Shown in pieces: positions 16,706 through 33,345 of a stretch of DNA of 64,000 bases (positions within the stretch are counted from its first letter, which is position 1; every line of letters begins with the position of its first letter). The translations under genes were made by a program, and so were the position numbers. The stretch is taken from the IMG/VR virus record IMGVR_UViG_3300031999_000001, positions 1 through 64,000 of that record; one strand, given 5' to 3'. The notes below the pieces were generated by a model, which worked only from the letters and a program-made list of their open reading frames with translations, made no database searches and was not told where the DNA came from. The DNA comes from a virus (Duplodnaviria > Heunggongvirae > Uroviricota > Caudoviricetes).

Positions 16706-17569
16706 TCATTGTAATTTGTTATTAAGTTTCTGTTTAAAAAGTTGAACTGTTTTATTACCAATTGCTTTTGATGCTTCTTTGGATTCAATGATTTCTTCAC
16801 GACCTTCCCGGTAAACATCTTCAACCATTGCTTTAATAACCTCACCCATTGATTCCATATTTACATCTGTGGGAAATTTCTGCAATACGTGTTCAAGTCT
16901 GAGATTAGTTACCCATTCTTCTGCAATTGCTTTTGCATCTTCCAAAACTTTTAGTGCTTCGGGACTAATTTCACGTTTAGTTTTAGTTTCCATTTGTTCA
17001 TCTGGCTTGTACTTGCAAATAACCCTTGCACCATTATTAAGACGCATTTCAACAAGTGGACGACAAACAATGCCTTCACGCTTATGGTCGTATCCCATGC
17101 CATTACGAACGGCTTGTATTGAATACATATCTCTTAATGCTGTAAGATTTTCCAATGTAACATCAATTTTGTTATAGTGTACAAATTCAACACCGAATTG
17201 ATAACATACATCTTGTGCATTTGGCACATCAAGCCAATTATCACCGACTTTTACATCAAAGCCAATGAATCTCAGTTCCTTGCCATAAGTATGTGACATA
17301 CCCTGTTGTTTTCCACCATAGGCTTCACCAAAAATAACAACATCAATATCGGGAAATATTTCCTGAAATTTTGATTTTAGAAAATTTTCATTGAATAATG
17401 CCACAAAGTTGTCGTGTTTTTCACCACCACTGGAAAAATGAATTATTTTCTCACTGAACTTCCAGCTTATATGTGCGGATGTGCCATGAATTTTTTCCAT
17501 AGCATAACATTCCTTAAATAAAAGGATTGTCTGGTCTTTGTAAAGGTTGTCAATGTGTAAATATCCCAT
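16706..17569 (-). CDS. RNA ligase, Rnl2 family
   Basis: Nucleotidyltransferase motifs collinear with T4 Rnl2: I EKIHGTS, III VIFGEAYG, IIIa FIGFDV, IV EGIVCRP, V RVICKYK. Confidence 0.8.
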   Translation of the reverse strand: MGYLHIDNLYKDQTILLFKECYAMEKIHGTSAHISWKFSEKIIHFSSGGEKHDNFVALFNENFLKSKFQEIFPDIDVVIFGEAYGGKQQGMSHTYGKELRFIGFDVKVGDNWLDVPNAQDVCYQFGVEFVHYNKIDVTLENLTALRDMYSIQAVRNGMGYDHKREGIVCRPLVEMRLNNGARVICKYKPDEQMETKTKREISPEALKVLEDAKAIAEEWVTNLRLEHVLQKFPTDVNMESMGEVIKAMVEDVYREGREEIIESKEASKAIGNKTVQLFKQKLNNKLQ

Positions 17570-21300: not shown

Positions 21301-22935
21301 TTATAAATCTACTTTAAAACGTAATGCAACTGGAAAACGTGGTTTTTTGTTTTTTCTTGTATAACCTTGATACTGAACTGTTACTATTCTACCAATAACT
21401 AATGATTTGTCATCAGCATATAATTTAAGGTCATCCATTTTACCTTTGAGTTTACAATCAAATGTAATACCTGCTGGTAACTGTTGGTCTTCTTTGGTTC
21501 TTTCACAAATGAACACAGCTTTACCTGCCATGATACCTTTTGTACCTATCTTTATGTCAACAACACGAAATTCGTCATCATCAAATACTTTAACTTTTTG
21601 CAAATCGTATGAACGTTTGTTCACATACATTCCATCAAAGTTTCTGACAATTGCACCTTCATATCCCATTTCCATGAAGTCTTCATAGGCTTGCATCAGT
21701 TCCTCTTTACTGTTAACAATTCTTGATTCAACAATATGAATTGGAGAATTTTCAAATATTGAACGCCATCCTTCAAGTATTAAATACCTATCATAATTTG
21801 TAAGATTTGGAAGTGCTAAATCATAAACATGATATTGAATAACTTCATAACCATCTTGTGGTTCATCGGATGTTATTAAAGAAGTTAGTTTTTCGAATGT
21901 TATTTTTTCTTTTGGAAAATTAAGTACTGCATGATCACCAAATAATTCGAATGCTTTTTTATCATATGCTTTTGCAGCATCTTCAGCAGTATTAAAATAA
22001 CCAATATGAATTTTTTTATAATCATGAGTAATCTGAGCATGCCAATTTTCATCTCTTTTAAAAAACATAACACCTTTATATCCACTTGTATTGTTTATTC
22101 TTTTTTCAGAATTTGCACCATTATTTGATTCAGTAACTAATCTTAGATTACTTTTTCTTGCATCTAATTTATTTCTATTAATATGATCAACATCACTTTC
22201 TGGTAAATCTAAAACTAATTTATGTATATAATAAATTTTATGTTTATATGTTGTAATGGGATATCCATTTCCAGAGATTGTAATTTTATTACCTTGTAAT
22301 TTAGGTAAATCTTCTTCATCAAGAAAAACAATATTTCCATTAATATTAAATTCAAGAAATGGTATTTCTATTGATTTATTTTCTTGAATATTAATATCTG
22401 GATGCCATAATTCACCATCAAATCTATCAGCAAGTCCACAATTTTCTAAAGTATTGACAATATGAGGAATTGTTAAAATTTGTTTACGGGTTCTACTCCA
22501 CATAGTTACCTTTCCAATGTCATACTGACTGGTGCAACGGTGTCCATCCAATTTAGGTTGTGCTATTGCAGGAAATTTAATTTTATGCCCTTGTTCCCAA
22601 AATTTATGGGCAAGAATTGGAAATACACCACCTTCAATAATTGCATCGGTTGTACCTGCTTGTGCATCTTCAATACTCTGAACATAACCTTTTTTGAGTT
22701 GTTTATCCCATCTGGCTTTGGCTTGAAATATACCTTGTTCAATTGGAGTTGTTTCATTTGATCTACCAGTATTTTTACCTGATAAAACCTGTTCATGGCT
22801 GTATTGAATTTTACCCCCAACCTGACCAAATCTGTTGATTATGGTAGAGATGCCATTGATTTCATCAACACTGACTGTCCATTCTTGAATAGCACCAGTA
22901 CTGGTTTTCTTGTAAAGTTTTGGAAATTCTTTCAT
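21301..22935 (-). CDS. ATP-dependent DNA ligase carrying an in-frame HNH-AP2 endonuclease domain insertion
   Basis: Ligase motifs I KLDGHR, III FDGELW, IIIa YHVYDL, IV EGAIVR and V LQKVK, plus an OB-fold tail. About 180 aa (nt ~21858..22398) between motifs III and IIIa form an HNH (VDHINRNKLDARKSNLR) plus AP2 (SGYKGV...WHAQI...IGYFNTAEDAAKAYD) unit. Confidence 0.75.
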   Translation of the reverse strand: MKEFPKLYKKTSTGAIQEWTVSVDEINGISTIINRFGQVGGKIQYSHEQVLSGKNTGRSNETTPIEQGIFQAKARWDKQLKKGYVQSIEDAQAGTTDAIIEGGVFPILAHKFWEQGHKIKFPAIAQPKLDGHRCTSQYDIGKVTMWSRTRKQILTIPHIVNTLENCGLADRFDGELWHPDINIQENKSIEIPFLEFNINGNIVFLDEEDLPKLQGNKITISGNGYPITTYKHKIYYIHKLVLDLPESDVDHINRNKLDARKSNLRLVTESNNGANSEKRINNTSGYKGVMFFKRDENWHAQITHDYKKIHIGYFNTAEDAAKAYDKKAFELFGDHAVLNFPKEKITFEKLTSLITSDEPQDGYEVIQYHVYDLALPNLTNYDRYLILEGWRSIFENSPIHIVESRIVNSKEELMQAYEDFMEMGYEGAIVRNFDGMYVNKRSYDLQKVKVFDDDEFRVVDIKIGTKGIMAGKAVFICERTKEDQQLPAGITFDCKLKGKMDDLKLYADDKSLVIGRIVTVQYQGYTRKNKKPRFPVALRFKVDL

Positions 22936-22940: not shown

Positions 22941-22971
22941 TTTATACGAATTTTATTTAAAAATATTACAA
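22941..22971 (-). promoter_or_regulatory. conserved phage promoter-like motif, copy C (TTGTAA-N19-TATAAA)
   Basis: Invariant TTCGTATA; 6 nt upstream of the ligase ATG. Confidence 0.45.
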
Positions 22972-23769
22972 TTTTTCATGTCTTTGTTTCACCATTTCTT
23001 TTTGAATGTATTGCCAGAACCACTTATAAAACATATTTGGTAATATTCCATGATTTGCAAAACCATAGAGTCCACAACTGAAGAAATCATGTGCCTCAAT
23101 AATAATTGTAGCATAATCACATACAGCAACATCAAGTGTATATGCAACAGGTGCTGACTTGTATGTTTTAATCATGCTTTTAATTGTATCAACACTTGGG
23201 AATCTGGTGAAATCACCAGCATAATTCTGCAAACCAACAAATTTGTCTTGATATACAAATGCACGCCATTCACTTTCAATACAACTAATATAATCAGAAA
23301 TCTGATAGTTTCCAATTGGAATTTTAGTTGAATATTGTGTTCCATGATTACCAGTATCCTTACATTCAACAATTTCTGAAAAATATTTTATTCGGTCATT
23401 ACTTTTAACAAAATACTTACCACCACAATTTTCGAGAGATAAATGATTGCCATTAAATATGTGTCTTTGGGTAAAACAAGGGTCAAATAATTCTTCTGGA
23501 ACATTAATTGGCATCACATGAATACCATAAAAATGGTGTATAAACTCTGAAACGAATTCAACACTTCCCACTGGAATATATTTCTCATGTAATGATTTAA
23601 AAGGCATTGGATAAATATCAATTGGTTCGACAGTATCGTGGTATTCGACAAACTTTACTTTAATATTATTATCACGATGTAACCAATTTTGAAATTTAAT
23701 TGATTCAAGTAATGTAAATGAAAAATCATGTACAATTTTTCCCTTAATTTTTTGAATTAAAAATTTCAT
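22966..23769 (-). CDS. hypothetical protein (possible ATP-grasp-like C-terminal region)
   Basis: YTLDVAVCDYATIIIEAHDFFSCG loosely resembles the ATP-grasp E-x-N strand; weak. Confidence 0.3.
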   Translation of the reverse strand: MKFLIQKIKGKIVHDFSFTLLESIKFQNWLHRDNNIKVKFVEYHDTVEPIDIYPMPFKSLHEKYIPVGSVEFVSEFIHHFYGIHVMPINVPEELFDPCFTQRHIFNGNHLSLENCGGKYFVKSNDRIKYFSEIVECKDTGNHGTQYSTKIPIGNYQISDYISCIESEWRAFVYQDKFVGLQNYAGDFTRFPSVDTIKSMIKTYKSAPVAYTLDVAVCDYATIIIEAHDFFSCGLYGFANHGILPNMFYKWFWQYIQKEMVKQRHEKL

Positions 23770-23800: not shown

Positions 23801-24958
23801 TCAACAATTCTCCAATGTATATTGAAAACCCTTATCTGAATAACATGGAAATTTAAAATTTATACCACAATATGAACCAATTTCATTAAAATTCACTGTA
23901 ATTAATTTACCTTTTTTTGTTACTGGAATTGCTTCGGGGTTAACTTGGTCAAGACAAGTAATTACCATACTTCTTCGTGAAATAGGATTATGATATTTAT
24001 CACATTCAACAGCATATTTCAATAAATCCAAATCAAGTACAGTTTTTCTGAAAGTTCCCTGATAACATTCATTTATATTGGTTTCATTGGGATTTTCTTT
24101 AATGTATGATGTATCAAGTCTTTCATTGGTCATATATCCATTACCATGACGTGTTTGATATGCACGTGTTACATAATAAGTTTTTAAATTTTTCTTATCA
24201 ATAAAAATTCCATATTTATTTATAATTTCTATTGCATTTTTTGATGTGGTATTACTTCTTGTAACATGTGGAAAAAAACCATAATTAGCATCTAACATAA
24301 TGCCCTGACCGCCTTCAAAAATCCAATCATTATCCATGAAACCATATAAATCATTAACAATATTATATCTGGTAACAAGGTCATCACATGCAATAATAAA
24401 ATCATCATAGAGTTTTTTGATATAGGCATGTTGATGTTCATTTTCTGGATTAAAATTTAACCTATAATATATATTCATTATAAGTCTGAGTTTTTCATTA
24501 CGGATTGCGGGATAAAATAAATCCCTGACATAAAGATGATAATGATCTTCATTTCTTTGAATTGTTGTTCCAAATCCTACACCAACACTACCATGATTAT
24601 TTTTTTCTTCAAGTTTATGATTTTGCAATATATCAAATGGTGTTGTAATCATTGCATTGGCATTAAGATATAATATTGGATTTACATCCATTTCTCTTAA
24701 CACCTTACCTTCTTTTAATATTCCAACAGGACTTACCGTACAATATTCTGACCAATAAGTTGGTACATTTAAAAGTGTACCTGAACCAAAATTAGAAAAT
24801 ACATGTCTTTTATCATTGGTAATAACAGTATGTCCAGATTGATGACCTGAATTATGTCTTATAACTAATGGATTTTTTGCTTTTGAACACAAATAATTAA
24901 CAAAAGAACCCTTGCCTTCATCACCATATAAACATCCGAGAATTACATATATATTCAT
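23801..24958 (-). CDS. adenylosuccinate synthetase family protein (PurA/PurZ homologue)
   Basis: N-terminal VILGCLYGDEGKGS (PurA P-loop GDEGKGK). RHNSGHQSGHTV ~ GGHNAGHT. GFGTTIQRNEDHY ~ GTTGRGIGPAYEDK. EGGQGIMLDANYGFFPHVTRSNTT ~ [24 protein letters not shown]. At 385 aa it is shorter than bacterial PurA (~430 aa). Confidence 0.8.
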   Translation of the reverse strand: MNIYVILGCLYGDEGKGSFVNYLCSKAKNPLVIRHNSGHQSGHTVITNDKRHVFSNFGSGTLLNVPTYWSEYCTVSPVGILKEGKVLREMDVNPILYLNANAMITTPFDILQNHKLEEKNNHGSVGVGFGTTIQRNEDHYHLYVRDLFYPAIRNEKLRLIMNIYYRLNFNPENEHQHAYIKKLYDDFIIACDDLVTRYNIVNDLYGFMDNDWIFEGGQGIMLDANYGFFPHVTRSNTTSKNAIEIINKYGIFIDKKNLKTYYVTRAYQTRHGNGYMTNERLDTSYIKENPNETNINECYQGTFRKTVLDLDLLKYAVECDKYHNPISRRSMVITCLDQVNPEAIPVTKKGKLITVNFNEIGSYCGINFKFPCYSDKGFQYTLENC

Positions 24959-24972: not shown

Positions 24973-25146
24973 TTAAATTTCACCACGTTCTTCTTGATTA
25001 ATTGCTTCTAATTTTCTTTTTATGCCAACATTTTTGTTTTGTTGAGTATAACTACCACCAAGTTTTTTACAAACAATTCCCCTACCTCTTTTTTTTGAAG
25101 ATACGGTTGGCTTTGTTCTTTTTCTATTTTTTCTTGATTTTGTCAT
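24973..25146 (-). CDS. small basic protein (57 aa, Lys/Arg-rich)
   Basis: MTKSRKNRKRTKPTVSSKKRGRG... Lies directly behind promoter copy D and ahead of the PurA-like gene. Confidence 0.3.
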   Translation of the reverse strand: MTKSRKNRKRTKPTVSSKKRGRGIVCKKLGGSYTQQNKNVGIKRKLEAINQEERGEI

Positions 25147-25168: not shown

Positions 25169-25199
25169 TTTATACGAAAAATAAATAAAAATGTTACAA
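25169..25199 (-). promoter_or_regulatory. conserved phage promoter-like motif, copy D (TTGTAA-N19-TATAAA)
   Basis: Invariant TTTCGTATA; immediately follows the 25204..25227 terminator hairpin on the minus strand. Confidence 0.45.
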
Positions 25200-25203
25200 A
25201 AAA

Positions 25204-25234
25204 AGGGACATATATTTTCACATGTCCCCTTTTT
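25204..25234 (-). terminator. rho-independent terminator (GGGACAT-N10-ATGTCCC plus T-tract)
   Basis: 7-bp GC-containing stem with a T-run on one side and an A-run on the other, downstream of the vWA gene. Confidence 0.5.
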
Positions 25235-25260: not shown

Positions 25261-26175
25261 TTAAAGATTAATAACACCCTCATCATTTTTTGATACTATG
25301 CTTCCGGTTATTACGGTTGCAAGTGCTGTTGTAACAATACCAGCAGTTTTTGCATCAAATTTACTTACAACAGATGCCATATCAACACCATATTGAACAG
25401 CAATAAGCGTAGCAATTGTTGCACAAATCGCATGATAATCATTTAGAACAATAAGTCTTTCGCCAAGAACAGTTTTCCAATAATTCAAAATATTCGGGTC
25501 ATCCCTGTAACTGGCTTCATTAATGTGTATATGATACACATTATAAAGTCTTTCAGCTTCTTCAAGAAGTTGTGAATCACTAACTTCTTCTGTCTGTGTA
25601 TAACCGAGTAAATGTTTCAGACTGTCTGCATCAACACAGTTCCAGCTTTTTTCGTCACCAATAGTGAAAAGGAAACCTTTGGTATTACGTTTTTCAAAAC
25701 AATCAATTGAGGTATGTCTTCCTGCAATAAGCCACGCAAGAAGATATGACTCCATATTCTGACCACCACCACCACCTTCAAGGTACATATTTTTCAGCCA
25801 TTTGTCAAGGTCTTCTGTACCTGATTCAAACTGACCTATTTGAAGTGGTGTACTATCGCAATGATGGTCACCAATTGCACCAAAAAGAATTTGAGGGTCT
25901 GAAACGCCATTATCAATAATGGTGTTCATGAGAGTACCGAGTTCATTTTTGATAATGGATTCGGGAATTTTACCCATACTTCCAGTCACATCAAGAAAAA
26001 CCATTACTGCTAATGATACAGGATGTGCATCACTGTCACGTGATTCTCTTACGGTAATATTTATTGGAAGCATTTCACTTACTGCTGATTTTGAAAAAAT
26101 CTCATCAGCATTTTTATCTACATAACTCGCACTTAGGTGAGCATATGCATCATTTGACCAAGTACTATAACCCAT
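25261..26175 (-). CDS. von Willebrand factor A (vWA) domain protein
   Basis: MIDAS-like DVTGSMG (DxSxS) after a beta strand VMVFLDVTG; Rossmann-like alternation downstream. Confidence 0.6.
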   Translation of the reverse strand: MGYSTWSNDAYAHLSASYVDKNADEIFSKSAVSEMLPINITVRESRDSDAHPVSLAVMVFLDVTGSMGKIPESIIKNELGTLMNTIIDNGVSDPQILFGAIGDHHCDSTPLQIGQFESGTEDLDKWLKNMYLEGGGGGQNMESYLLAWLIAGRHTSIDCFEKRNTKGFLFTIGDEKSWNCVDADSLKHLLGYTQTEEVSDSQLLEEAERLYNVYHIHINEASYRDDPNILNYWKTVLGERLIVLNDYHAICATIATLIAVQYGVDMASVVSKFDAKTAGIVTTALATVITGSIVSKNDEGVINL

Positions 26176-26353
26176 TGTTTTTGGTATTAGAAGTTTCAGT
26201 GTTATCAGCTACAACCTCTGCAGGTTTAGCATCTGTGTCATCACCTTCTTCTGTTGGTACAGTTTCGGGTATTGATTCAGGAATAGTCTCCTGTTCCTGT
26301 GTGCGAGCCATTTCTTCAAACGACTCAGAATTTTCATACTTACCAGTTCCCAT
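26165..26353 (-). CDS. small acidic protein
   Basis: Highly acidic, Glu/Thr/Pro-rich. Confidence 0.3.
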   Translation of the reverse strand: MGTGKYENSESFEEMARTQEQETIPESIPETVPTEEGDDTDAKPAEVVADNTETSNTKNNGL

Positions 26354-26392: not shown

Positions 26393-26423
26393 AACATACG
26401 AATAATTTTTCAATTTATTACAA
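26393..26423 (-). promoter_or_regulatory. conserved phage promoter-like motif, copy E (TTGTAA-N19-TATGTT, weaker)
   Basis: Same architecture and TTCGTAT core; upstream of 26353. Confidence 0.3.
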
Positions 26424-27302
26424 GTTTAATGAAAAAAATTTCTTTTTAAAATTTTTCTCCAGTATTTTTCTATATTTATCATATTCATTTTTATCATTTT
26501 CATGTTTTGTAAGAAGAAAATTTAAAACTTCTTGGTTTACATCTTTATCAGTTTTTAATTTTGTTCCTGCTGCTGATCTATCACCTAACAAATATAGTGC
26601 AATTTTTTTACAAAGCTCTAAATCAATATCAGGTGTTGCTATTTTTTTACTAAAAAGATTAGTAGGATACCACATTTTATACTTAGCTGATATTGTTTTT
26701 GCTTTCTTGTTTAAAATGTTCATATGATAAAAAGAAACCACTATAATTCCATGAGTCTCAGGTACAACAAATACTGTTGTGGGATTTAATCCCAAATGTG
26801 AATAATTAATTTGTCTCAACCATAATACAAATTCAAACATCCTACTGAACAACCAGTTAACATGATATTGAGGTAATTTTTGTCCTGTGAGTGGAACTGA
26901 GCGATCTTTTAAATTAATTGTGAGTTTGTCTTTTTCCAACATCATACTTTCTGGCAGGTATCTGTGAAAACTTTCTGACGCTTTGTCATGTTTTGTCATC
27001 AGAAGATTGTAATTATTTACTGATTTGGTAATTAATTTACGATTAACATCAGTGATTTCATATACAATTTTCTTTTCAAAAACCCGAAAAATGCCAGTTT
27101 CATCTGTATATTTAAGACCATTTTCAAGTATATCCTTATAATAATTCATTTTAGCCATTGCTTCAGCAGCCGAAGAATTTGAATTATAATCAGGATGAAT
27201 TAACTTACTATATGTATGATATAGTTTTTTCCAATCATCAGGAAAAATATCAGAAGGTTTTGTTGATTTCATAAGCATATCAATCAATTCTCTATCTGTC
27301 AT
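26418..27302 (-). CDS. J-domain (DnaJ-like) protein
   Basis: WKKLYHTYSKLIHPDYN with HPD at residues 36-38, followed by AEAMAKMNYYKDIL (helix III pattern). Confidence 0.45.
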   Translation of the reverse strand: MTDRELIDMLMKSTKPSDIFPDDWKKLYHTYSKLIHPDYNSNSSAAEAMAKMNYYKDILENGLKYTDETGIFRVFEKKIVYEITDVNRKLITKSVNNYNLLMTKHDKASESFHRYLPESMMLEKDKLTINLKDRSVPLTGQKLPQYHVNWLFSRMFEFVLWLRQINYSHLGLNPTTVFVVPETHGIIVVSFYHMNILNKKAKTISAKYKMWYPTNLFSKKIATPDIDLELCKKIALYLLGDRSAAGTKLKTDKDVNQEVLNFLLTKHENDKNEYDKYRKILEKNFKKKFFSLNL

Positions 27303-27307: not shown

Positions 27308-28282
27308 TTATTTTTTTACACCCTTATCATTAAAAATCAAAAATTCAAATTCAAATCCTCTATCAATCACAGATTGTCTTTTTATATTAATTAAATCCAT
27401 ATTTAAATTTATTGTATATGTTGACTTTATTTCAAATATTTTATGTTTACTTTTAACATATATATCTGGGAAATATCTACGATTTTTATTTTTCTTTATA
27501 TCATAAAACCAAAAAGTACCAATTTCTTTTTCAATTTCTTTATTGCCAATAATAATATCATTTTCATTTATACTTTCACTTAATAAATATTCAATTCCAT
27601 AATTTTCATATCCTTGAATTTTAACAATTCTTCCTGATGGTAACACATATTTTTTTGCACAAATACCAGTAAGCAATTTTTTATCCATTACTTCTGAAAC
27701 TTGACTAACATTGGTGAATGTAATTCCATATTTTTTTTGAATTGTTTTTATGCATTCATCATGAACTTCTTTTGATTGAAATGGATAATCTACTCCATAA
27801 TGTTTTCTACTTGTGGCAATTTTTTTATTTTTAATTATAAGAGATTTGGACACATTATCAACTCCAAAATGTTTGATTGATGTATTCATTTTTTTATTTT
27901 TTATAATATCGGATTGAGAAATATTATCAACACCATATTTTTTTCTACATTTTTCAATTTTTTTTATTTTAGATATGTTTAATTGTGAAATATTATTAAC
28001 ATTATATTTTTCCTTTAAAAATTTTTTGGTACGTTTTATTCGACATTTTGAAGAACACACAAATCCCCTTTTACATCTCATATATTGTTTAAATGGTACT
28101 TTAACTTCTTTTTGACATTCTTCACAAATACATGAAACAATTTCATTACTATCAGGATTTAATTCAGATGATTTAATTTCAATAATATCACCATATTTAC
28201 AATTAATGCCACATTTTCTATAAAATTTCTTATTATTACCATAAATTTTTACTTTATGAATTTGTTCAATTAAATTTTTCAT
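27308..28282 (-). CDS. zinc-ribbon / repeat / PD-(D/E)xK-like putative DNA-binding nuclease
   Basis: N-terminal Cys cluster (CxxC..CxxC). Five ~25-aa repeats K(K/H)YGVDN(I/V)SQS..IIKNKK. C-terminal FPDIYVKSKHKIFEIKS (D-x10-E-x-K). Confidence 0.4.
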   Translation of the reverse strand: MKNLIEQIHKVKIYGNNKKFYRKCGINCKYGDIIEIKSSELNPDSNEIVSCICEECQKEVKVPFKQYMRCKRGFVCSSKCRIKRTKKFLKEKYNVNNISQLNISKIKKIEKCRKKYGVDNISQSDIIKNKKMNTSIKHFGVDNVSKSLIIKNKKIATSRKHYGVDYPFQSKEVHDECIKTIQKKYGITFTNVSQVSEVMDKKLLTGICAKKYVLPSGRIVKIQGYENYGIEYLLSESINENDIIIGNKEIEKEIGTFWFYDIKKNKNRRYFPDIYVKSKHKIFEIKSTYTINLNMDLINIKRQSVIDRGFEFEFLIFNDKGVKK

Positions 28283-28313
28283 GATTTTCTTTTTCTATAA
28301 ATACTTAAGAAAA

Positions 28314-28934
28314 TCATTTTCTATCGTCATCCAGTATAATATATCTATTTTTCAATCCGATGTTGAGTTCTTTGGCAATTATTCTCAGATTTGTTTTGGC
28401 GATGTTCAGACGATATTCCGTATTACGAATTTCGTTTTCAAGTTGATTGGCTTCTTTAAGCAATATTTGTTTGAACTCCGGGTCAGTAGATTTAATTACT
28501 TCTTTATGAATATCATTTTCTCCTGACATCCACATCCATTCAGGAAGTTCATTGTGTATTGCCGTACCAATATTATTTGAATATGTTGCACAAGAATTTG
28601 CTTGTTTGAAAGTATTGATACTATAATCTTTATCACGGATAAGATATCTTACAGGAAATTGTTTAAAATATTCAATGTCTTCAGCATCAATTTGTTTTTG
28701 ATATTCTTCATATGTTTTAACACTTATTCCTTCACCATAAAAATAATTAAAAAACTTTTTTAATTCATTTCTGAATTCTTCAAGTTCTTCCTGATTATCA
28801 AAATAAAAATCTTCTTCAAGTTTCCATTGGGATTCATTGATGCCAACTGATGGGTCACCTTTAGCTGTAATGTAAAAACCAGTTATTTTCATAATTTTTG
28901 ATATATTTTTTAAGAATTTTTTTGTAATTTTCAT
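28314..28934 (-). CDS. hypothetical protein
   Basis: ORF only. Confidence 0.4.
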   Translation of the reverse strand: MKITKKFLKNISKIMKITGFYITAKGDPSVGINESQWKLEEDFYFDNQEELEEFRNELKKFFNYFYGEGISVKTYEEYQKQIDAEDIEYFKQFPVRYLIRDKDYSINTFKQANSCATYSNNIGTAIHNELPEWMWMSGENDIHKEVIKSTDPEFKQILLKEANQLENEIRNTEYRLNIAKTNLRIIAKELNIGLKNRYIILDDDRK

Positions 28935-28945
28935 AATATTAATTG

Positions 28946-29122
28946 TTAATTAAGACTTGGATGTTCAATAACTTCATATCCAAAATCACGCAGAATTTCA
29001 CGCACAACATACCACTCGCCATTAAATTCCAATGCATCAACAGTTGATTGTGGTGCATTACTGTGAAATTTAATAATCTTTTCATTTATATCATCATGAT
29101 ATGTGCGTAATTCAATTTTCAT
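28946..29122 (-). CDS. small hypothetical protein (58 aa)
   Basis: Below the ORF-track threshold; promoter copy F sits 9 nt upstream. Confidence 0.25.
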   Translation of the reverse strand: MKIELRTYHDDINEKIIKFHSNAPQSTVDALEFNGEWYVVREILRDFGYEVIEHPSLN

Positions 29123-29130
29123 AATAATGT

Positions 29131-29161
29131 TTTATACGAATTATATTATAAAAGGTTACAT
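29131..29161 (-). promoter_or_regulatory. conserved phage promoter-like motif, copy F (ATGTAA-N19-TATAAA)
   Basis: TGTAAC and TTCGTATA cores conserved. Confidence 0.4.
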
Positions 29162-29692
29162 TTTTTCTTGTTTTATTATCTTAAGTTCGTACAAATATAG
29201 AAAAAGAAATTAATAAAACAATAAAAAGTATTTATCTTTTTAGGAATATTTGTAATAAGATCAAAAATAATTCGTATTATTGTAAAAATTATAAATATTC
29301 AGATTTATAAAAATTATCTTATATTTAATTAATTTTAAAATGAATGAATCATGGTGGTTTTTAATTGGAATTGCATCATTTATAATAATTGCGTTTACTT
29401 TATTAAAATATGGACTTTTTACTCAATCTAAAAGAAAAAAGAAATTGTAATTAGTATGCAGAGTATGTTGCTAAACAATTAAATAAGAAAACTGTATGGG
29501 TAGAATAAATGATGATTATGGTCCTGATTTAAAAAAGGAAGATATTAATATATATTTTAATATACATATTAATATTGAGATGAGTAAAGAAAATGTGTTA
29601 AATAAAAATGAACCTGACAATATATGTATAATATAATACATATTTCTTGCATTTTCAGATAATATGGTTTATATTAGCACAAATTTTAAATT

Positions 29693-30262
29693 ATGAAAAA
29701 CTTAGGACATTTAATGCTTGATCTTGAAACGATGGGCAAGCGAGCAGGATGTGCAATTGTATCAATTGGTGCAATCGAATTCGATTTGGAAACTGGTGAA
29801 ATGGGCAGAAAATTTTATGAACCTGTCGATCTTCAGTCTTGTTTAAATGTTGGTCTTTTTGTAGAAGCCAGTACAATTTATTGGTGGATGATGCAAAACG
29901 AAGAAGCAAGAAAAGAACTTTGTAAACCTGCCGTTAGTATTCAAAATGTTTTAGTGGCATTTACTTCATTTTTACATTGTCTTGGTGATTTTCAGCTTTG
30001 GGGAAATGGTGCAAGTTTTGATATGTCAATTCTTGAAGCAGCGTATTTTGCTATTGGTCTGGGAGAAATATTACCTTGGAAATTCAGAAATGAAAGAGAT
30101 GTTCGTACTTTAGTTTCTTTTGCTCCCGAAATCAAAGACAATTATCGTAAAATGGGAATAACGCATTGCGCTATTGATGATTGTAAACACCAAATTGAAT
30201 ATTGTGTTGCTATTTGGCAAAAATTAAAAAGTAATCATCTTACATCGCTTTCATTAAAATAA
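29693..30262 (+). CDS. DEDDh 3'-5' exonuclease (oligoribonuclease/ExoX-like)
   Basis: Exo I LMLDLETMG, Exo II WGNGASFDMSIL, Exo III HCAIDDCKHQ. The N-terminus resembles Orn (LIWIDLEMTGL). Confidence 0.6.
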   Translation: MKNLGHLMLDLETMGKRAGCAIVSIGAIEFDLETGEMGRKFYEPVDLQSCLNVGLFVEASTIYWWMMQNEEARKELCKPAVSIQNVLVAFTSFLHCLGDFQLWGNGASFDMSILEAAYFAIGLGEILPWKFRNERDVRTLVSFAPEIKDNYRKMGITHCAIDDCKHQIEYCVAIWQKLKSNHLTSLSLK

Positions 30263-30281
30263 ATTTTATAATAAGCATTAT

Positions 30282-30656
30282 ATGATAAAATGGAAAGAAG
30301 AATTTAAAAAATATCTTGCAAAAAAATTTAATGAAAAAATGGGGTATGAGATTAACCCCCAAAATATACATTCTATTGAAATAAATACTGAAATTAAAAT
30401 TGATTTATTGTCCGTTGAAGATTTGGCATTTACTTATGCTTTTGCAATAATGGACGAAAATTTTGAGCAGGCAAAGTTTATCAATGATGAATTTACCAAA
30501 AGAAATTGTGAGATTAAAATTAATATTGACGAAAAAAATCATTGTGGTACAATTGATGTTTATCAACTACCTGAAATTAGTTGTGCGTTATTGTCAATAT
30601 CTTTGAAAGTTTTACCAGATGGTATGATGATTGATTTTGAAAAACAAAATTTATAA
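30282..30656 (+). CDS. hypothetical protein
   Basis: ORF only. Confidence 0.4.
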   Translation: MIKWKEEFKKYLAKKFNEKMGYEINPQNIHSIEINTEIKIDLLSVEDLAFTYAFAIMDENFEQAKFINDEFTKRNCEIKINIDEKNHCGTIDVYQLPEISCALLSISLKVLPDGMMIDFEKQNL

Positions 30657-30662
30657 AATAAT

Positions 30663-31013
30663 ATGGAAAATTTAAAAACTGAAAAATTTAAAGAAAAAAT
30701 ATTTAATTTCATTGATAATACTGAATGGAATTTTATTGGAAATAAGCCTGTAATAATTGATTTTTATACCGATTGGTGTAGTCCATGTAAAAGAGTTGCT
30801 CCAATTCTTGAAGAACTCAGCACTGAATATTTAAGCATTGATTTTTATAAAGTAAATGCTGAAAATGAAAATGAATTGGCTACATTTTTTCATATTAAAA
30901 GTGTTCCTTCAATACTTTTTATACCATTAACAGGAACACCACAAATGGTAGTGGGTGGTGTTCCAAAAGGAATTTTAAAAGAAAAAATTAAAAATATTTT
31001 CAATATTGATTAA
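30663..31013 (+). CDS. trx: thioredoxin
   Basis: FYTDWCSPCKRVAP (WCxPC active site) in a ~115 aa protein. Confidence 0.8.
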   Translation: MENLKTEKFKEKIFNFIDNTEWNFIGNKPVIIDFYTDWCSPCKRVAPILEELSTEYLSIDFYKVNAENENELATFFHIKSVPSILFIPLTGTPQMVVGGVPKGILKEKIKNIFNID

Positions 31014-31028
31014 TATTTTCTCATTTTT

Positions 31029-31059
31029 TTGTAACATTTTAATTTATTTTTCGTATAAT
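31029..31059 (+). promoter_or_regulatory. conserved phage promoter-like motif, copy G (TTGTAA-N19-TATAAT)
   Basis: TTTCGTATAAT; 19 nt upstream of the ATG at 31079. Confidence 0.5.
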
Positions 31060-31078
31060 ACTTTAAATAATTACAAAA

Positions 31079-31879
31079 ATGACAAAGAAAAAAATAGTGA
31101 TTGACCCGCAGAAACATGCTGAAATGCTTTTGGAAAGAGAATTCACTGAAATCAAAGAAAACATTGCTTTTGGTATATTACCATTAAATCCCACAAGATT
31201 TTTTAAGGTTGGTGAACAGGTACAATTTGGTGCACATCATGAAACCTATATTCGTGAAATCTTTGAAAATGGATTATATTATAAAATTGAATCAATCGGT
31301 GTTCAACGTGAAAGAGATAAGCCACCTGTAAATGAATTTTATGTACTTGGATGGCATGATATATTTCCTATTGGTTGTTCTGGTCAAACTAAATTTGCAA
31401 AAAAAGAAGAACATTTTCTCAGCCTTTCAAATACTTCACTGGAGTCTTTATTATTTAAGGTGTATGGTGCTGGTGTCGATTTTGATGTTGATTATCAGCG
31501 TGATCATGTATGGACACTTGCAGATAAAATTGCCCTTATTGATAGTATTTTCAATAATATTGATATTGGTAAATTTGTTTTTGTTCAACGTAATATGGGT
31601 TATAATGGTAAACTTTATGAAGTTATTGATGGCAAACAAAGACTTACTGCCATTTATGAATTTTATGAAGATAGATTTCAATATAATGGTTTTTATTATT
31701 CACAATTGTCATTTGAAGATAAAAATAAATTTAAAAATCATGGAATTACTTACGGATATTTGGAAAATCCAAATAAAAGAAGTATATTTGAAACCTTTAT
31801 TAAACTTAATACTTGTGGAAAGCCAATGGCATTGAAACATATTGATAAAGTAAAAAAATTATTAGATGAACTTGGATAA
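31079..31879 (+). CDS. DUF262 (ParB-like / GmrSD N-terminal) domain protein
   Basis: YQRDHVW ... IDGKQRLTAI matches the DUF262 DGQQR motif; standalone, with no DUF1524/HNH partner. Confidence 0.55.
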   Translation: MTKKKIVIDPQKHAEMLLEREFTEIKENIAFGILPLNPTRFFKVGEQVQFGAHHETYIREIFENGLYYKIESIGVQRERDKPPVNEFYVLGWHDIFPIGCSGQTKFAKKEEHFLSLSNTSLESLLFKVYGAGVDFDVDYQRDHVWTLADKIALIDSIFNNIDIGKFVFVQRNMGYNGKLYEVIDGKQRLTAIYEFYEDRFQYNGFYYSQLSFEDKNKFKNHGITYGYLENPNKRSIFETFIKLNTCGKPMALKHIDKVKKLLDELG

Positions 31880-32261
31880 ACCCATAATTATACTTGATTT
31901 AGATGGAGTTATGTGCACCACACGTCAATATTATACCAATAAGAAAAAATGGCATCCAATATATGATTGTTATCGTTTTGATGAAAAATGTGTTAAGGTA
32001 CTCAATATTATAATTGAAAAAACAAATCCTATTATTGTACTTTCAAGTGATTGGAAAGACCATTATACCATTAATATGTTGAATGGAATATTTGAATGGA
32101 ATAAGGTTAATGCTAAAGTTTCTGATGTCACATCATCTTCTTGGGGTGTTCAGTTCACAAGTTTGCAACAATTGGAAGAATGTCGTTCATATGAAATCAA
32201 TAAATATCTTATATGTTCCACCAAAGGAATATGCAACAATACCAGATTCGTTAATTCGTAA
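31866..32261 (+). CDS. HAD-superfamily phosphatase-like protein
   Basis: Motif I IIILDLDGVM near the N-terminus; small size. Confidence 0.4.
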   Translation: MNLDKPIIILDLDGVMCTTRQYYTNKKKWHPIYDCYRFDEKCVKVLNIIIEKTNPIIVLSSDWKDHYTINMLNGIFEWNKVNAKVSDVTSSSWGVQFTSLQQLEECRSYEINKYLICSTKGICNNTRFVNS

Positions 32262-32276
32262 ATTACCATTTTAATT

Positions 32277-32522
32277 ATGAAAACAACATTATTAAAAATT
32301 CTTTGGAAAAAAGAAATTATTCATTGGAAACGAATTGGACAGATGTTCAAAAAATTCAATAGTTGGATAAGTAAATTAACTTTTGGTTTGATTGTTGCTG
32401 TTTTTATTACAATATTTCATTATGCATTTGCAATAATGCATACACTATATGAAATATTTTTGTTTATCTTTGCAAAACAATCATTTCAAGCTAATTTACA
32501 AAAATTAATATTAAAAGTATGA
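32277..32522 (+). CDS. small membrane protein
   Basis: One to two hydrophobic helices. Confidence 0.3.
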   Translation: MKTTLLKILWKKEIIHWKRIGQMFKKFNSWISKLTFGLIVAVFITIFHYAFAIMHTLYEIFLFIFAKQSFQANLQKLILKV

Positions 32523-33037: not shown

Positions 33038-33043
33038 ATTAAA

Positions 33044-33343
33044 ATGTTTGATTTTTTAAAAAATATATTATTTTTGATTCCAATAATGATATATTATCTT
33101 ATAGAATCAATAATTCTTGCACTTTTTATTAATTTAGTTTGGAAACTTATTTTACAATCAAAATTTAATATTTATCTATCATATCTTGATTGGGTTGCAA
33201 TAATCTGGATTATTAAAGTAGTATTTTTTGATATTTTTAAGTTGCTTGGTAATTTTTTCAATGTGATTTATGAGAAAATAGAAGGAATTGAAAAAGACCG
33301 AATTAATAAACAAAATAATAGCACTGGATATAAGACAAATTAA
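33044..33343 (+). CDS. membrane protein
   Basis: Multiple hydrophobic helices. Confidence 0.35.
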   Translation: MFDFLKNILFLIPIMIYYLIESIILALFINLVWKLILQSKFNIYLSYLDWVAIIWIIKVVFFDIFKLLGNFFNVIYEKIEGIEKDRINKQNNSTGYKTN

Positions 33344-33345
33344 TT

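What the first reader, a model, noticed from the sequence alone, without database searches (positions are those of the whole stretch)
23801..24958. Short adenylosuccinate-synthetase homologue (PurA/PurZ-like) behind its own terminator-promoter unit: possible 2-aminoadenine (Z) DNA pathway or purine auxiliary metabolic gene
The protein is clearly in the PurA family. It shares the GDEGKG P-loop, the GHxxGHT loop, GTTxR and the EG.QG.LLD..G.YP.VTSSNTT segment. At 385 aa it is ~45 aa shorter than bacterial PurA and diverges around the Asp/IMP-binding TTGRRRR segment (here QGTFRKT). PurA homologues in phages include the PurZ/PurZ0 enzymes that make dSMP from dGMP as the first step to 2-aminoadenine DNA. 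In known Z-phages they travel with an HD-family dATPase (DatZ), a MazG-like enzyme (MazZ) and a dedicated polymerase. This window has an HD-domain protein of DatZ-like size (5031..5579) but it is 18 kb away, and no MazG-like protein or polymerase is seen. The gene is preceded on the minus strand by a terminator (25204..25227), then promoter copy D (25169..25199), then a 57-aa Lys/Arg-rich ORF. That layout suggests separately regulated expression. It is followed by an ORF with a possible ATP-grasp-like region (22966..23769). The alternative reading is a plain auxiliary PurA that boosts AMP synthesis.
Basis: partly seen in the sequence, partly recalled or inferred. Interest (0 to 1): 0.8.

Follow-up and report, generated by a model that had tools for sequence, protein, structure and literature searches.

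The report
PurA-like ligase paired with vWA protein
The gene is a real adenylosuccinate-synthetase relative, but it is neither the Z-DNA enzyme PurZ nor an ordinary PurA: it belongs to a widespread, apparently undescribed gene cassette of phages and bacteria in which a PurA-like enzyme with a rebuilt substrate pocket always follows a metal-binding vWA protein.

Summary
ORF 23801..24958(-) is a 385-aa PF00709 protein, preceded by a strong terminator hairpin, a repeated promoter-like motif and a 57-aa ORF, and followed by an R2K ATP-grasp gene.

The Z-DNA reading fails. The protein keeps Asp13, whereas all phage PurZ/PurZ0 have Ser. It scores 35.6 bits against the PurZ model (cutoff 300). Its model matches canonical PurA structures better than PurZ. 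No DatZ or MazZ homologue occurs in the window or in 83 related phage loci.

It is not an orthodox PurA either: 115 bits against a cutoff of 402. Residues that bind aspartate and part of the IMP ribose-5'-phosphate in PurA are replaced by other invariant residues (His271, Gln300, aromatic 299, Cys335, mostly Arg234).

The key finding is linkage. A MIDAS vWA protein (25261..26175) lies immediately upstream in 79 of 83 phage loci; the other four are cut there. The PurA-like gene follows it in 75 of 80 bacterial loci. A J-domain/kinase-like protein (26418..27302), or instead a ~120-aa helical protein, usually comes first.

I infer a GTP-dependent purine-C6 ligase that uses a non-aspartate amine and works with its vWA partner. 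The physiological role is unknown.

The parts
23801..24958 (-). PurA-superfamily enzyme of a distinct clade (phrog_1211). It keeps the GTP P-loop and the catalytic core, but its aspartate and ribose-5'-phosphate pocket is rebuilt.
   Evidence: PF00709 at E=3e-40. Sub-threshold for the PurA and PurZ NCBIfam models. Residue census. AF2 model with pLDDT 85 and pTM 0.88. Foldseek against PDB.
25261..26175 (-). Obligate upstream partner: a ~300-aa vWA-fold protein (phrog_2971). It has an intact MIDAS (D62-x-T64-x-S66, D103, E142, D174-E175) and an invariant N-terminal Met-Gly...(Y/W)-S tail that the model leaves disordered.
26418..27302 (-). Frequent first gene of the cassette: a J-domain (invariant HPD) fused to a protein-kinase-like domain whose catalytic loop is degenerate.
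   Evidence: Weak DnaJ match and phrog_3043 'kinase'. HPD is invariant in 12 diverse homologues. The Mycobacterium phage I3 homologue passes the Pfam Pkinase cutoff. Present in 27 phage loci and 62/80 bacterial loci.
22966..23769 (-). R2K.2-family ATP-grasp (predicted peptide/protein ligase). A clade-specific accessory gene directly downstream.
   Evidence: PF18299 at E=5e-17 and PF14243 at E=1e-11. Found downstream of the PurA-like gene in 19 of the 83 phage loci, mostly the closest relatives, and not in the bacterial loci.
25198..25229 (-). Intrinsic-terminator-like hairpin (stem 25204..25229) with a T-run, after the vWA gene.
   Evidence: Sequence. Folds at -19.9 kcal/mol, z=-5.9, with 0 of 200 shuffles as stable.
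25169..25199 (-). Phage-specific promoter-like motif TTGTAACATTTT...TTTTCGTATAA, one of five copies in the window.
   Evidence: Other copies at 592..621(-), 5890..5919(-), 31029..31058(+) and 33712..33741(+). Expected 0 in shuffles.
24973..25146 (-). 57-aa Lys/Arg-rich ORF between the promoter and the PurA-like gene. It is a lineage-specific filler and not part of the conserved cassette.
   Evidence: No homologue in 83 loci. Other lineages carry unrelated small ORFs or GIY-YIG-like endonuclease genes at this position.

Best explanation
SHOWN. The gene belongs to a large, coherent clade of the adenylosuccinate-synthetase superfamily, separate from housekeeping PurA and from PurZ/PurZ0. It is the last gene of a self-contained cassette: [J-domain/kinase-like protein, or instead a ~120-aa helical protein] - MIDAS vWA protein - PurA-like enzyme. 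The cassette is embedded in otherwise unrelated genomic contexts in many phage lineages and in bacterial chromosomes.

INFERRED.
1. The enzyme is active. It still binds GTP (P-loop, guanine-reading Asp337). It probably still activates the 6-oxo group of an IMP-like purine nucleotide through a 6-phosphoryl intermediate, because Asp13, Lys16, His43 and Gln218 are invariant.
2. The amine that attacks C6 is probably not L-aspartate. The PurA residues that hold aspartate and close that pocket are replaced by a different, equally invariant and more hydrophobic set: His271, aromatic 299, Gln300 and Phe303, with Val/Leu in place of R131.
3. The 5'-phosphate site is rewired. R143, supplied in PurA by the partner subunit, is lost, and Arg234 is gained in cis. 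This suggests that the PurA homodimer is not required.
4. Strict adjacency, frequent start/stop overlap and the joint conservation of the two proteins point to a complex with the vWA protein. The vWA protein would act as regulator or adaptor, or as the substrate itself through its invariant free N-terminal glycine.
5. The J-domain protein would recruit host DnaK.
6. The physiological role is not established. The distribution is sporadic and mobile, with occasional adjacency to NAD+-salvage, ADP-ribosylglycohydrolase and R2K-ligase genes. The most likely setting is therefore nucleotide or protein modification in phage-host conflict or host takeover, not bulk AMP or Z-DNA synthesis.
For: Family and fold.

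Residue census (70 unique phage sequences; 66 bacterial plus 66 phage sequences):
- Invariant: D13, K16, H43, Q218, H271, Q300. C335 and D337 are nearly so (130/132 each).
- Changed from E. coli PurA: N38 to Q, T129 to V/C, S240 to R (111/132), R131 to V/L/M. R143 and R303 are unconserved.

Linkage:
- vWA gene directly upstream and on the same strand in 79/83 phage loci. The other four loci are cut at that edge.
- PurA-like gene directly downstream of the vWA gene in 75/80 bacterial loci.
- The vWA-to-PurA-like gap is <=30 bp or an overlap in 30/78 phage loci and 51/71 bacterial loci.
- Flanking genes are otherwise unrelated.
- In INPHARED the same phage groups carry both genes: Mycobacterium 202 vs 201, Rhizobium 10 vs 10, Vibrio 6 vs 6. 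The Salmonella, Acinetobacter, Listeria and Staphylococcus phages that match the PurA-like query do not appear among the vWA matches.

vWA fold and MIDAS. The N-terminal MG..(Y/W)S motif is present in all 132 sequences, and the tail is disordered in the model.

J-domain HPD motif and kinase fold.

Alternative first gene, mutually exclusive with the J-domain protein.

Context hints: NrtR-Prs-NadV(-ARH) or Prs-NadV lies directly upstream of the cassette in several bacterial loci and one phage locus. The R2K.2 family is predicted to modify proteins (PMC4431377).

Family size: 5173 vWA homologues at E<=1e-3, 1331 cluster representatives at E<=1e-10, 522 viral and 588 bacterial stretches confirmed by tblastn.
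Against: - No biochemical data exist. The substrate inference rests on alignment to E. coli PurA.
- The register around the RRRR segment is ambiguous by one residue.
- One basic residue is kept (R304, R/K in all), so aspartate binding in a different geometry cannot be excluded.
- In this window a terminator and a separate promoter lie between the vWA and PurA-like genes. The two are therefore not obligatorily co-transcribed here.
- Inter-protein covariation gave no signal for a contact.
- The loci analysed are the best 80 of each scan, so they are biased towards relatives of the query.
- The conserved 'start at Met-Gly' is inferred from ORFs, not from protein data.
- NAD-gene adjacency is seen in only about 8 of 163 loci.
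Confidence: 0.5

Rival explanations
1. PurZ-type enzyme. It makes N6-succino-2-amino-dAMP from dGMP as the first step towards 2-aminoadenine (Z) DNA, with the HD protein at 5031..5579 acting as DatZ.
For: The protein is in PF00709. PHROG and RefSeq label the family '2-aminooxy adenylosuccinate synthetase'. It is shorter than PurA. An HD-domain protein lies 18 kb away.
Against: - Asp13 and Glu14 are kept, where PurZ has Ser-Thr. Ser is found in 100% of phage PurZ/PurZ0 (PMC12884076), and S14D abolishes selectivity (bioRxiv 2025.10.22.683976).
- The PurZ model scores 35.6 bits against a cutoff of 300.
- Structural neighbours are canonical PurA, not PurZ.
- The guanine-reading Asp (D333 equivalent) is kept, which fits a GTP donor. 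In the MAFFT alignment the two PurZ sequences have a gap at this position.
- The HD protein is unrelated to DatZ.
- No DatZ or MazZ homologue is found in the window or in 83 loci.
- The DatZ search lists no Mycobacterium or Rhizobium group among its ten largest groups, although these phages have complete genomes that carry the cassette.
Confidence: 0.03
2. Ordinary auxiliary PurA: IMP + Asp + GTP gives adenylosuccinate. It boosts AMP/ATP supply during infection, perhaps feeding NAD+ reconstitution, with the vWA protein as a regulatory subunit.
For: The catalytic core and GTP site are intact. The closest structures are canonical PurA. NadV/Prs genes are adjacent in some loci. One basic residue of the RRRR segment is kept. 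Host PurB could complete the pathway (established purine pathway knowledge).
Against: - It scores 115 bits against the 402-bit equivalog cutoff.
- T300, T301, R303, R304, R131, V273, T129 and R143 are all replaced, most by new invariant residues. That pattern indicates changed rather than relaxed specificity.
- The cassette also sits in bacteria that are expected to have a housekeeping purA (inference; not checked here).
- Obligate coupling to a vWA protein and a J-domain protein has no precedent for a metabolic PurA.
Confidence: 0.22
3. The PurA-like protein has become a SIMIBI-type GTPase switch or chaperone partner of the vWA protein. This would be analogous to MoxR-vWA pairs that remodel or metallate client proteins, with no ligase chemistry and with the J-domain protein bringing in DnaK.
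For: vWA proteins typically work with an NTPase partner (MoxR-vWA in jumbo phages, PMC7824862). A J-domain co-chaperone is in the cassette. The aspartate site is lost.
Against: Residues that in PurA contact the IMP base and phosphate, and have no role in GTP hydrolysis alone, stay invariant: Q218 (Q224 in E. coli), T233 (T239), and the TRxG loop with new invariants H271 and Q300. This argues for a bound second substrate.
Confidence: 0.1
4. The cassette is an immune or counter-immune module. The vWA and J-kinase proteins sense a trigger, and the PurA-like enzyme makes or destroys a purine-nucleotide signal, or depletes GTP/IMP.
For: It has a sporadic, context-independent distribution in bacterial chromosomes and phages. 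It resembles the vWA + kinase TerY-P defence triad in composition. It neighbours NAD+-salvage, ARH and R2K genes.
Against: No PADLOC model matches any cassette protein. There is no PP2C phosphatase. The kinase catalytic loop is degenerate. More than 200 lytic Mycobacterium cluster C phages conserve the cassette, which suggests a core phage function. This reading overlaps with the best explanation: it concerns role, not chemistry.
Confidence: 0.15

Closest known systems
Adenylosuccinate synthetase PurA (E. coli, PDB 1ADE/1CG0 family)
   Same: Same fold, with Foldseek E about 1e-19 to 1e-21 and TM 0.72-0.75. It has the same GDEGKG P-loop with Asp13, and keeps His41, Gln224, Thr239, the guanine-reading Asp333 and Arg305/306.
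   Different: It is 47 aa shorter, with a truncated C-terminus and no S414-x-G-P element. N38 to Q, T129 to V/C, R131 to V, R143 lost, S240 to R, V273 to H, T300 to aromatic, T301 to Q, R303 variable, R304 to F, K331 to C. It scores 115 bits against a 402-bit equivalog cutoff. It is always encoded next to a vWA protein.
PurZ / PurZ0 (phiVC8, S-2L, Gordonia phage Archimedes; PDB 6FM1, 7ODX, 7VF6)
   Same: A phage-encoded, shortened member of PF00709.
   Different: PurZ has Ser-Thr in place of Asp13-Glu14 and keeps the TT motif. It belongs to the archaeal-like short branch and travels with DatZ/MazZ or DutZ/DmtZ (PMC8342488, PMC12884076). Here Asp13 is kept, the TT motif is lost, and the structure is closer to long PurA. 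There is no Z-cluster, and the partner is a vWA protein instead.
TerY-P triad (vWA TerY + Ser/Thr kinase + PP2C phosphatase), a validated defence system (own knowledge: Anantharaman et al. 2012; Gao et al. 2020)
   Same: A three-gene unit that combines a MIDAS vWA protein with a kinase-fold protein. It is found sporadically in bacteria.
   Different: There is no PP2C phosphatase. The kinase-like domain is fused to a J-domain and lacks the catalytic Asp. The third gene is a PurA-like enzyme. No PADLOC match.
MoxR AAA+ - vWA chaperone pairs (CbbQ/O, NorQ/D, CoxD/E; jumbo-phage MoxR-vWA, PMC7824862)
   Same: A vWA/MIDAS protein is encoded next to, and presumably works with, a P-loop NTPase.
   Different: The NTPase here is a PurA-family (SIMIBI-type) GTP enzyme with a conserved second-substrate pocket, not an AAA+ ring.

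Membership tests
Adenylosuccinate synthetase superfamily (Pfam PF00709) | Profile match above the Pfam gathering score | tested here: met
   138.5 bits against a cutoff of 27, E=3.3e-40.
Adenylosuccinate synthetase superfamily (Pfam PF00709) | P-loop GDEGKG, catalytic His41, Gln224, PurA fold | tested here: met
   Alignment. These residues are invariant in 132 family members. AF2 model plus Foldseek gives TM 0.75 to PurA structures.
Canonical PurA (IMP:L-aspartate ligase, NCBIfam equivalogs TIGR00184 / NF002223) | Score above the equivalog cutoff | tested here: not met
   115.4 bits against 402 for NF002223, and 104.5 against 395.55 for TIGR00184.
Canonical PurA (IMP:L-aspartate ligase, NCBIfam equivalogs TIGR00184 / NF002223) | Aspartate-binding residues T300/T301/R303(/R304/R131) | tested here: not met
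   Replaced by Y/F/W, Q (invariant), a variable residue, F and V/L/M. The role of R303 is taken from PMC8342488; the roles of the others rest on my own knowledge of E. coli mutagenesis work.
Canonical PurA (IMP:L-aspartate ligase, NCBIfam equivalogs TIGR00184 / NF002223) | IMP 5'-phosphate site N38/T129/T239 plus R143 from the partner subunit | tested here: not met
   Only T239 is kept. N38 to Q, T129 to V/C, R143 unconserved, and a new Arg at the S240 position.
Canonical PurA (IMP:L-aspartate ligase, NCBIfam equivalogs TIGR00184 / NF002223) | Catalytic activity IMP + Asp + GTP to adenylosuccinate | not testable with these tools
   Needs an enzyme assay or purA complementation.
PurZ / PurZ0 (succino-amino-deoxyadenylate synthase) | Ser replaces the catalytic Asp13 (100% of phage PurZ/PurZ0) | tested here: not met
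   Asp at this position in the window protein and in 131/132 relatives; the remaining one has a gap. The criterion comes from PMC12884076 and bioRxiv 2025.10.22.683976.
PurZ / PurZ0 (succino-amino-deoxyadenylate synthase) | NCBIfam NF038379 score above cutoff | tested here: not met
   35.6 bits against 300, over residues 4-51 only.
PurZ / PurZ0 (succino-amino-deoxyadenylate synthase) | Synteny with DatZ and MazZ/DUF550 (or DutZ/DmtZ) | tested here: not met
   No DatZ or MazZ homologue in the 64-kb window or in 83 related loci. The HD protein is unrelated to DatZ. Limit: about 136 kb of the 200-kb source contig was not available, and DutZ, DmtZ and DUF550 were not searched.
PurZ / PurZ0 (succino-amino-deoxyadenylate synthase) | 2-aminoadenine in virion DNA | not testable with these tools
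   Needs LC-MS or restriction analysis of virion DNA.
vWA / MIDAS domain (partner protein 25261..26175) | vWA Rossmann-like fold | tested here: met
vWA / MIDAS domain (partner protein 25261..26175) | MIDAS motif DxSxS plus downstream Thr/Asp ligands | tested here: met
   D62-x-T64-x-S66, D103 and D174 are invariant or nearly so in 132 sequences. Metal binding itself was not tested.
TerY-P defence triad | vWA + active Ser/Thr kinase + PP2C phosphatase; PADLOC/Gao_TerY models | tested here: not met
   No PP2C gene in the cassette. The catalytic-loop Asp is absent. No PADLOC hit.
J-domain co-chaperone (26418..27302) | HPD tripeptide in a J-domain helix-loop | tested here: inconclusive
   HPD is invariant in 12 homologues. 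The Pfam DnaJ score is below the cutoff: 17.6 against 27.8 and 16 for the phage I3 homologue.
R2K.2 ATP-grasp (22966..23769) | Pfam PF18299 above the gathering score | tested here: met
   62.6 bits against 26.2.

The most novel reading that the evidence does not exclude
The PurA-like enzyme uses a protein amine instead of aspartate. The leading candidate is the invariant, disordered N-terminal glycine of its own vWA partner; a client held by the vWA MIDAS site is the alternative. The enzyme would join that amine to C6 of IMP and so create an N6-(protein)-AMP adduct. This would be a previously unknown kind of protein 'purinylation', built on adenylosuccinate-synthetase chemistry and used by phages and bacteria.
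Probability: 0.12. Interest if true: 0.9.

Novelty: new variant of a known kind. Interest (0 to 1): 0.65.

Why it matters
1. Annotation. PHROG/RefSeq-style annotation calls this clade '2-aminooxy adenylosuccinate synthetase', that is PurZ, in more than 200 Mycobacterium, Rhizobium and Vibrio phage genomes. The defining PurZ residue is absent, so these phages should not be counted as candidate Z-genome phages.

2. A third branch of the superfamily. Phage PurA homologues outside PurZ have been treated as an outgroup (PMC12884076). At least this clade is a coherent family of its own, with a rebuilt second-substrate pocket and an obligate vWA partner. That implies new chemistry or new regulation on a textbook enzyme scaffold.

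3. Reach. The cassette is abundant, with thousands of homologues and about 1,300 cluster representatives at 50% identity. It is shared by jumbo phages, actinophages and Bacteroidota chromosomes. It also occurs in culturable systems (Mycobacterium smegmatis cluster C phages, Vibrio phages, Hymenobacter and Dyadobacter isolates), so its function is directly testable.

Tried and rejected
- Nucleotide search of the region against 50,697 phage records gave no match.
- PADLOC models do not match any cassette protein.
- I considered that the 57-aa Lys/Arg-rich ORF belongs to the unit. Rejected: it has no homologues, and other lineages carry unrelated small ORFs or GIY-YIG-like endonuclease genes in the same gap.
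- I considered that the ~120-aa helical first gene is a reduced version of the J-domain/kinase-like protein. hhalign gives a probability of 0.6%, so this is not supported. It has no PDB, Pfam or PHROG match.
- I considered its 'YLFGG' ending as a ubiquitin- or Pup-like C-terminus. Rejected, because variable tails follow the motif.
- APC-corrected mutual information between the vWA and PurA-like proteins (132 pairs, Neff about 89), run to test an N-terminal-tail/active-site contact, was dominated by gappy, high-entropy columns. It is uninformative.
- The 200,057-bp source contig could not be retrieved. Only 15-kb and 7-kb copies came back, so the rest of the genome was not scanned.
- The afdb50 fold library was unavailable.
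- Literature searches for the vWA + PurA-like pair found no description.
Full report
**1. The observation**

ORF 23801..24958 on the minus strand is real: it starts with ATG and encodes 385 aa. It matches Pfam Adenylsucc_synt at E=3.3e-40, covering profile positions 1-320 of 416. In PDB its best sequence match is E. coli PurA, at E about 3e-25.

The GDEGKG, GHxxGHT and EG.QG..LD...TxSNTT motifs align with those of E. coli PurA. 'GTTIQR' (130-135) is not the G127-T-T-G-R131 motif, which aligns with G123-S-V-G-V127. T129 and R131 are therefore lost, not kept.

Upstream on the minus strand I found three features:
- A hairpin with a stem at 25204..25229 followed by seven T. It folds at -19.9 kcal/mol, z=-5.9.
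- The motif TTGTAACATTTT...TTTTCGTATAA at 25169..25199. It recurs at 592, 5890, 31029 and 33712, whereas shuffles give no match.
- A 57-aa basic ORF.

Downstream lies an R2K-clade ATP-grasp gene (PF18299, E=5e-17). The window is AT-rich (about 28% GC). The exact protein is recorded on a 200,057-bp metagenomic contig. The gene content is typical of a large phage, with no close nucleotide relative among deposited phages.

**2. It is not PurZ**

The literature gives a sharp criterion. In all 147 phage PurZ/PurZ0 sequences the catalytic Asp13 of PurA is replaced by Ser (PMC12884076). [quoted passage not shown]

- The window protein has Asp13-Glu14, as do 69 of the 70 unique phage relatives (the remaining one has a gap there); phiVC8 and S-2L PurZ have Ser-Thr.
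- The NCBIfam PurZ model scores 35.6 bits against a cutoff of 300, and only over the N-terminal P-loop.
- An AF2 model (pLDDT 85, pTM 0.88) matches canonical long PurA structures at E about 1e-20 and TM 0.72-0.75. PurZ (7ODX, 6TNH, 6FM0), PurZ0 (7VF6) and the short archaeal PurA (5K7X) come last, at E 1e-10 to 1e-13 and TM 0.51-0.64.
- The HD protein at 5031..5579 has no detectable similarity to DatZ of phiVC8 or S-2L.
- tblastn with DatZ, MazZ, PrimPol and DpoZ against the window plus 83 related phage loci (1.37 Mb) finds no DatZ, MazZ or PrimPol. It finds one weak PolA hit.
- Among deposited phages, DatZ homologues occur in Vibrio, Aeromonas, Acinetobacter, Shewanella and similar phages. No Mycobacterium or Rhizobium group is among the ten largest groups listed, although those phages have complete genomes that carry this PurA-like gene.
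- A metagenomic restriction-resistance study found that PF00709 proteins clustering with E. coli PurA come mostly from unmodified contigs. This is indirect, because it is not known whether those proteins belong to this clade.

Limit: about 136 kb of the source contig could not be examined.

**3. It is not an orthodox PurA either**

It scores 115 and 104 bits against PurA equivalog cutoffs of 402 and 396.

I ran a residue census on 70 unique phage homologues, then repeated it on 66 bacterial and 66 phage sequences. It shows two classes of position.

Kept (E. coli numbering unless stated):
- G12-D13-E14-G15-K16-G17
- H41 and Q224
- T239
- the guanine-reading D333
- one Arg of the RRRR segment

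Replaced by new residues that are themselves nearly invariant:
- V273 to His, 132/132
- T301 to Gln, 132/132
- K331 to Cys, 130/132
- N38 to Gln
- T129 to Val/Cys
- S240 to Arg, 111/132
- T300 to Tyr/Phe/Trp
- R304 to Phe, in most phage sequences
- R131 to Val/Leu/Met

R143 and R303 are simply unconserved. R303 contacts the IMP 2'-OH and the aspartate substrate (PMC8342488). The aspartate roles of T300, T301 and R304/R305, and the role of R143 from the partner subunit at the 5'-phosphate, rest on my own knowledge of the E. coli mutagenesis literature.

This is the pattern of changed specificity, not decay. The GTP-dependent activation machinery is intact. The pocket for the second substrate is rebuilt and more hydrophobic. 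The phosphate ligand that PurA borrows from its dimer partner seems to be replaced in cis. The alignment register at the RRRR segment is uncertain by one residue, so residual aspartate binding cannot be excluded.

**4.

The gene just upstream of the terminator, 25261..26175 (phrog_2971, no Pfam family), has homologues directly upstream of the PurA-like gene in three unrelated phages:
- Mycobacterium phage I3, 35% identity
- Rhizobium phage RHph_TM30, 35%
- Vibrio phage SRILMA, 42%

*Phage loci.* A scan of IMG/VR gave 522 confirmed relatives of the PurA-like protein, and I analysed the best 80. Together with the three deposited phages, 79 of 83 loci have the partner immediately upstream on the same strand. 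The four exceptions have the PurA-like gene at the very 5' edge of the available DNA.

*Deposited phages.* The same groups carry both genes: Mycobacterium 202 vs 201, Rhizobium 10 vs 10, Vibrio 6 vs 6. The Salmonella, Acinetobacter, Listeria and Staphylococcus phages that match the PurA-like query are absent from the vWA matches.

*Spacing.* The two genes overlap or lie within 30 bp in 30/78 phage loci and 51/71 bacterial loci. Larger gaps hold lineage-specific small ORFs or GIY-YIG-like endonuclease genes. Clustering all ORFs in the flanks shows nothing else conserved: the neighbours are different in nearly every lineage.

*N-terminus.* Every member begins Met-Gly-x-x-x-(Tyr/Trp)-Ser, or contains that motif just after a mis-called start. 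Residues 1-21 are disordered in the model.

*Family size.* The family is large: 5173 homologues at E<=1e-3 and 1331 cluster representatives (50% identity) at E<=1e-10.

**5. A three-gene cassette, also in bacteria**

A first gene precedes the vWA gene in most loci, in one of two mutually exclusive forms.

- In 27 phage loci, including the window (26418..27302), it is a ~295-aa protein with an invariant HPD motif in an N-terminal J-domain-like segment and a C-terminal protein-kinase-like domain. The phage I3 homologue passes the Pfam Pkinase cutoff. The catalytic-loop Asp is missing.
- In 39 other loci it is an unrelated ~120-aa helical protein (consensus GAFxxSLKRNNKQIRDDRA...ENMLDLSP...RYxYLFGG) with no known family.

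Scanning one genome per species with the vWA profile gave at least 588 bacterial loci. The best 80 include isolates of Hymenobacter, Dyadobacter, Pedobacter, Niastella and Mucilaginibacter, many Saprospiraceae MAGs, Candidatus Electronema and CPR MAGs.

- The PurA-like gene follows the vWA gene in 75/80 of these loci, and the J-domain/kinase-like gene precedes it in 62/80.
- Nothing else is conserved around them, and the flanks do not look like prophages.
- The bacterial proteins carry the same residue signature as the phage ones.

The unit is therefore self-contained and mobile.

The R2K ATP-grasp gene downstream in the window is confined mostly to the closest phage relatives (19 loci). That family has been predicted to modify proteins in phage-host conflict (PMC4431377).

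In a minority of loci the cassette directly follows NAD+-salvage genes:
- NrtR-Prs-NadV, with an ADP-ribosylglycohydrolase in one case: Pedobacter and Mucilaginibacter (L114, L119).
- NrtR-like Nudix and NadV in one further bacterial locus (L127).
- Prs-NadV in phage locus L054, and NadV nearby in L049.

Rhizobium phage TM30 has PRTase-like and cytidylyltransferase genes 4-5 kb upstream. This is a hint, not a rule.

**6. How it most likely works**

Shown: fold, family, residue pattern, gene linkage and distribution.

Inferred:
- The enzyme binds GTP and a 6-oxopurine nucleotide and forms the 6-phosphoryl intermediate, as PurA does.
- The attacking amine is probably not aspartate.
- The enzyme acts together with the vWA protein, probably as a complex.
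- The vWA protein is either an adaptor or regulator that holds an acidic ligand at its MIDAS site, or the substrate itself through its free N-terminal glycine.
- The J-domain protein engages host DnaK.

The biological purpose is open. My leading guess is nucleotide or protein modification in host takeover or phage-host conflict. I put about 0.5 on the composite explanation. Within it I put about 0.9 on 'distinct clade in a conserved vWA cassette, not PurZ' and about 0.6 on 'non-aspartate nucleophile'.

Rivals:
- Regulated but ordinary PurA: 0.22.
- Immune or counter-immune signalling module: 0.15. This overlaps with the main reading, because it concerns role rather than chemistry.
- GTPase-only switch, analogous to MoxR-vWA pairs: 0.10.
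- PurZ: 0.03.

In this window the hairpin and the separate promoter motif between the vWA and PurA-like genes mean the two genes can be transcribed separately, unlike in most relatives. That fits an insertion at this spot, not a functional split.

**7. Comparison with known systems, and novelty**

The enzyme works like PurA in its first half-reaction and belongs to the PF00709 superfamily. It fails the tests for membership of the PurA equivalog and of PurZ. The cassette resembles TerY-P (vWA + kinase) and MoxR-vWA pairs in logic, but fails their defining features: there is no PP2C, no AAA+ and no PADLOC hit.

I found no description of a vWA + PurA-like pair in the searchable literature. The jumbo-phage survey that catalogues R2K, DnaJ and MoxR-vWA genes does not mention PurA. 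I classify it as a new variant of a known kind.

It matters for three reasons:
- It corrects a widespread 'PurZ-like' annotation.
- It defines a third functional branch of a textbook enzyme family.
- It is abundant and present in culturable systems, so it can be tested.

Interest: 0.65.

Noticed in passing
window 21301..22935 (-): The ATP-dependent DNA ligase carries an in-frame insertion of about 165 aa (residues ~181-346) with HNH_3 and AP2 domains. Orthologues in related contigs are 375-388 aa and align on both sides of the insertion at 64-73% identity. No HINT/intein blocks are obvious, so this looks like an in-frame homing-endonuclease insertion.
   Followed up: partly
window 592..621(-), 5890..5919(-), 25170..25199(-), 31029..31058(+), 33712..33741(+): A 30-nt promoter-like motif, TTGTAACATTTT-N-TTTTCGTATAA, is repeated five times, each time upstream of a gene start, whereas shuffles give no match. 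It is probably a phage-specific promoter class.
   Followed up: partly
L018, L022, L023, L025, L027, L028, L035, L039, L060 (between the vWA and PurA-like genes); Mycobacterium phages Alice, Nappy, Quasimodo and others: GIY-YIG-like endonuclease ORFs ('IYKITN..FYIGS') are inserted between the vWA and PurA-like genes in about 9 phage loci. In a subset of cluster C mycobacteriophages only part of the vWA gene matches the query, and in two of those records the feature under the match is annotated as an HNH endonuclease. In BFVD the Mycobacterium phage Sauce homologue is 595 aa. The cassette appears to be a hotspot for homing endonucleases.
   Followed up: partly
L114 1948..5114, L119 990..5049, L127 3365..5860, L054 799..2996, L049 4644..6158; L094 8388..9377: NAD+-salvage genes (NrtR-type Nudix regulator, Prs-like PRPP synthetase, NadV/NAMPT) and ADP-ribosylglycohydrolase lie directly next to the cassette in several independent bacterial and phage lineages. 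This suggests a link to NAD+/ADP-ribose metabolism.
   Followed up: partly
Deposited phage records, e.g. NC_067270 gene 273, NC_070966 gp019, PP083314 CDS0093: PurA-like genes of Mycobacterium cluster C, Rhizobium and Vibrio phages are annotated '2-aminooxy adenylosuccinate synthetase' (the PHROG label for PurZ), although this clade keeps Asp13 and lacks a Z-cluster. This is a probable systematic mis-annotation.
   Followed up: yes
window 15730..16578 (-), 16706..17569 (-), 29693..30262 (+): A Thg1-like 3'-5' nucleotidyltransferase, an RNA ligase and an Rv2179c-like 3'-5' exoribonuclease are present. This looks like a possible tRNA/RNA repair set.
   Followed up: no
window 12388..14349 (-) and 1145..2317 (-): An FtsH-like protein (AAA+ domain plus M41 peptidase, 653 aa, far below the FtsH equivalog cutoff) and an SPFH/Band-7 protein are encoded by the phage.
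   Followed up: no
window 48618..51947 (-): A single 1109-aa ORF combines a calcineurin-like phosphoesterase (Mre11/SbcD-like) with Rad50/SbcC-like AAA_23, zinc-hook and SMC_N regions. It is an apparent nuclease-ATPase fusion.
   Followed up: no
window 31079..31879 (+): This ORF has a GmrSD_N (DUF262) domain, the N-terminal domain of type IV restriction enzymes that target modified DNA. It is preceded by one of the promoter-motif copies.
   Followed up: no
window 28000..38000: GC skew and coding strand flip here. A plus-strand block (about 29.7-37.3 kb) sits inside an otherwise minus-strand window and includes an SLT lytic transglycosylase (36361..37047).
   Followed up: no
window 26165..26353 (-): A 62-aa highly acidic ORF ends by overlapping the start of the vWA gene. 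It has no family match, and its conservation was not established.
   Followed up: no
window 27308..28282 (-): A DUF7487 protein (E=2.5e-41) with a weak TnsA-like endonuclease match lies just upstream of the J-domain gene. It is found in only one related locus, so it is probably another mobile nuclease.
   Followed up: no
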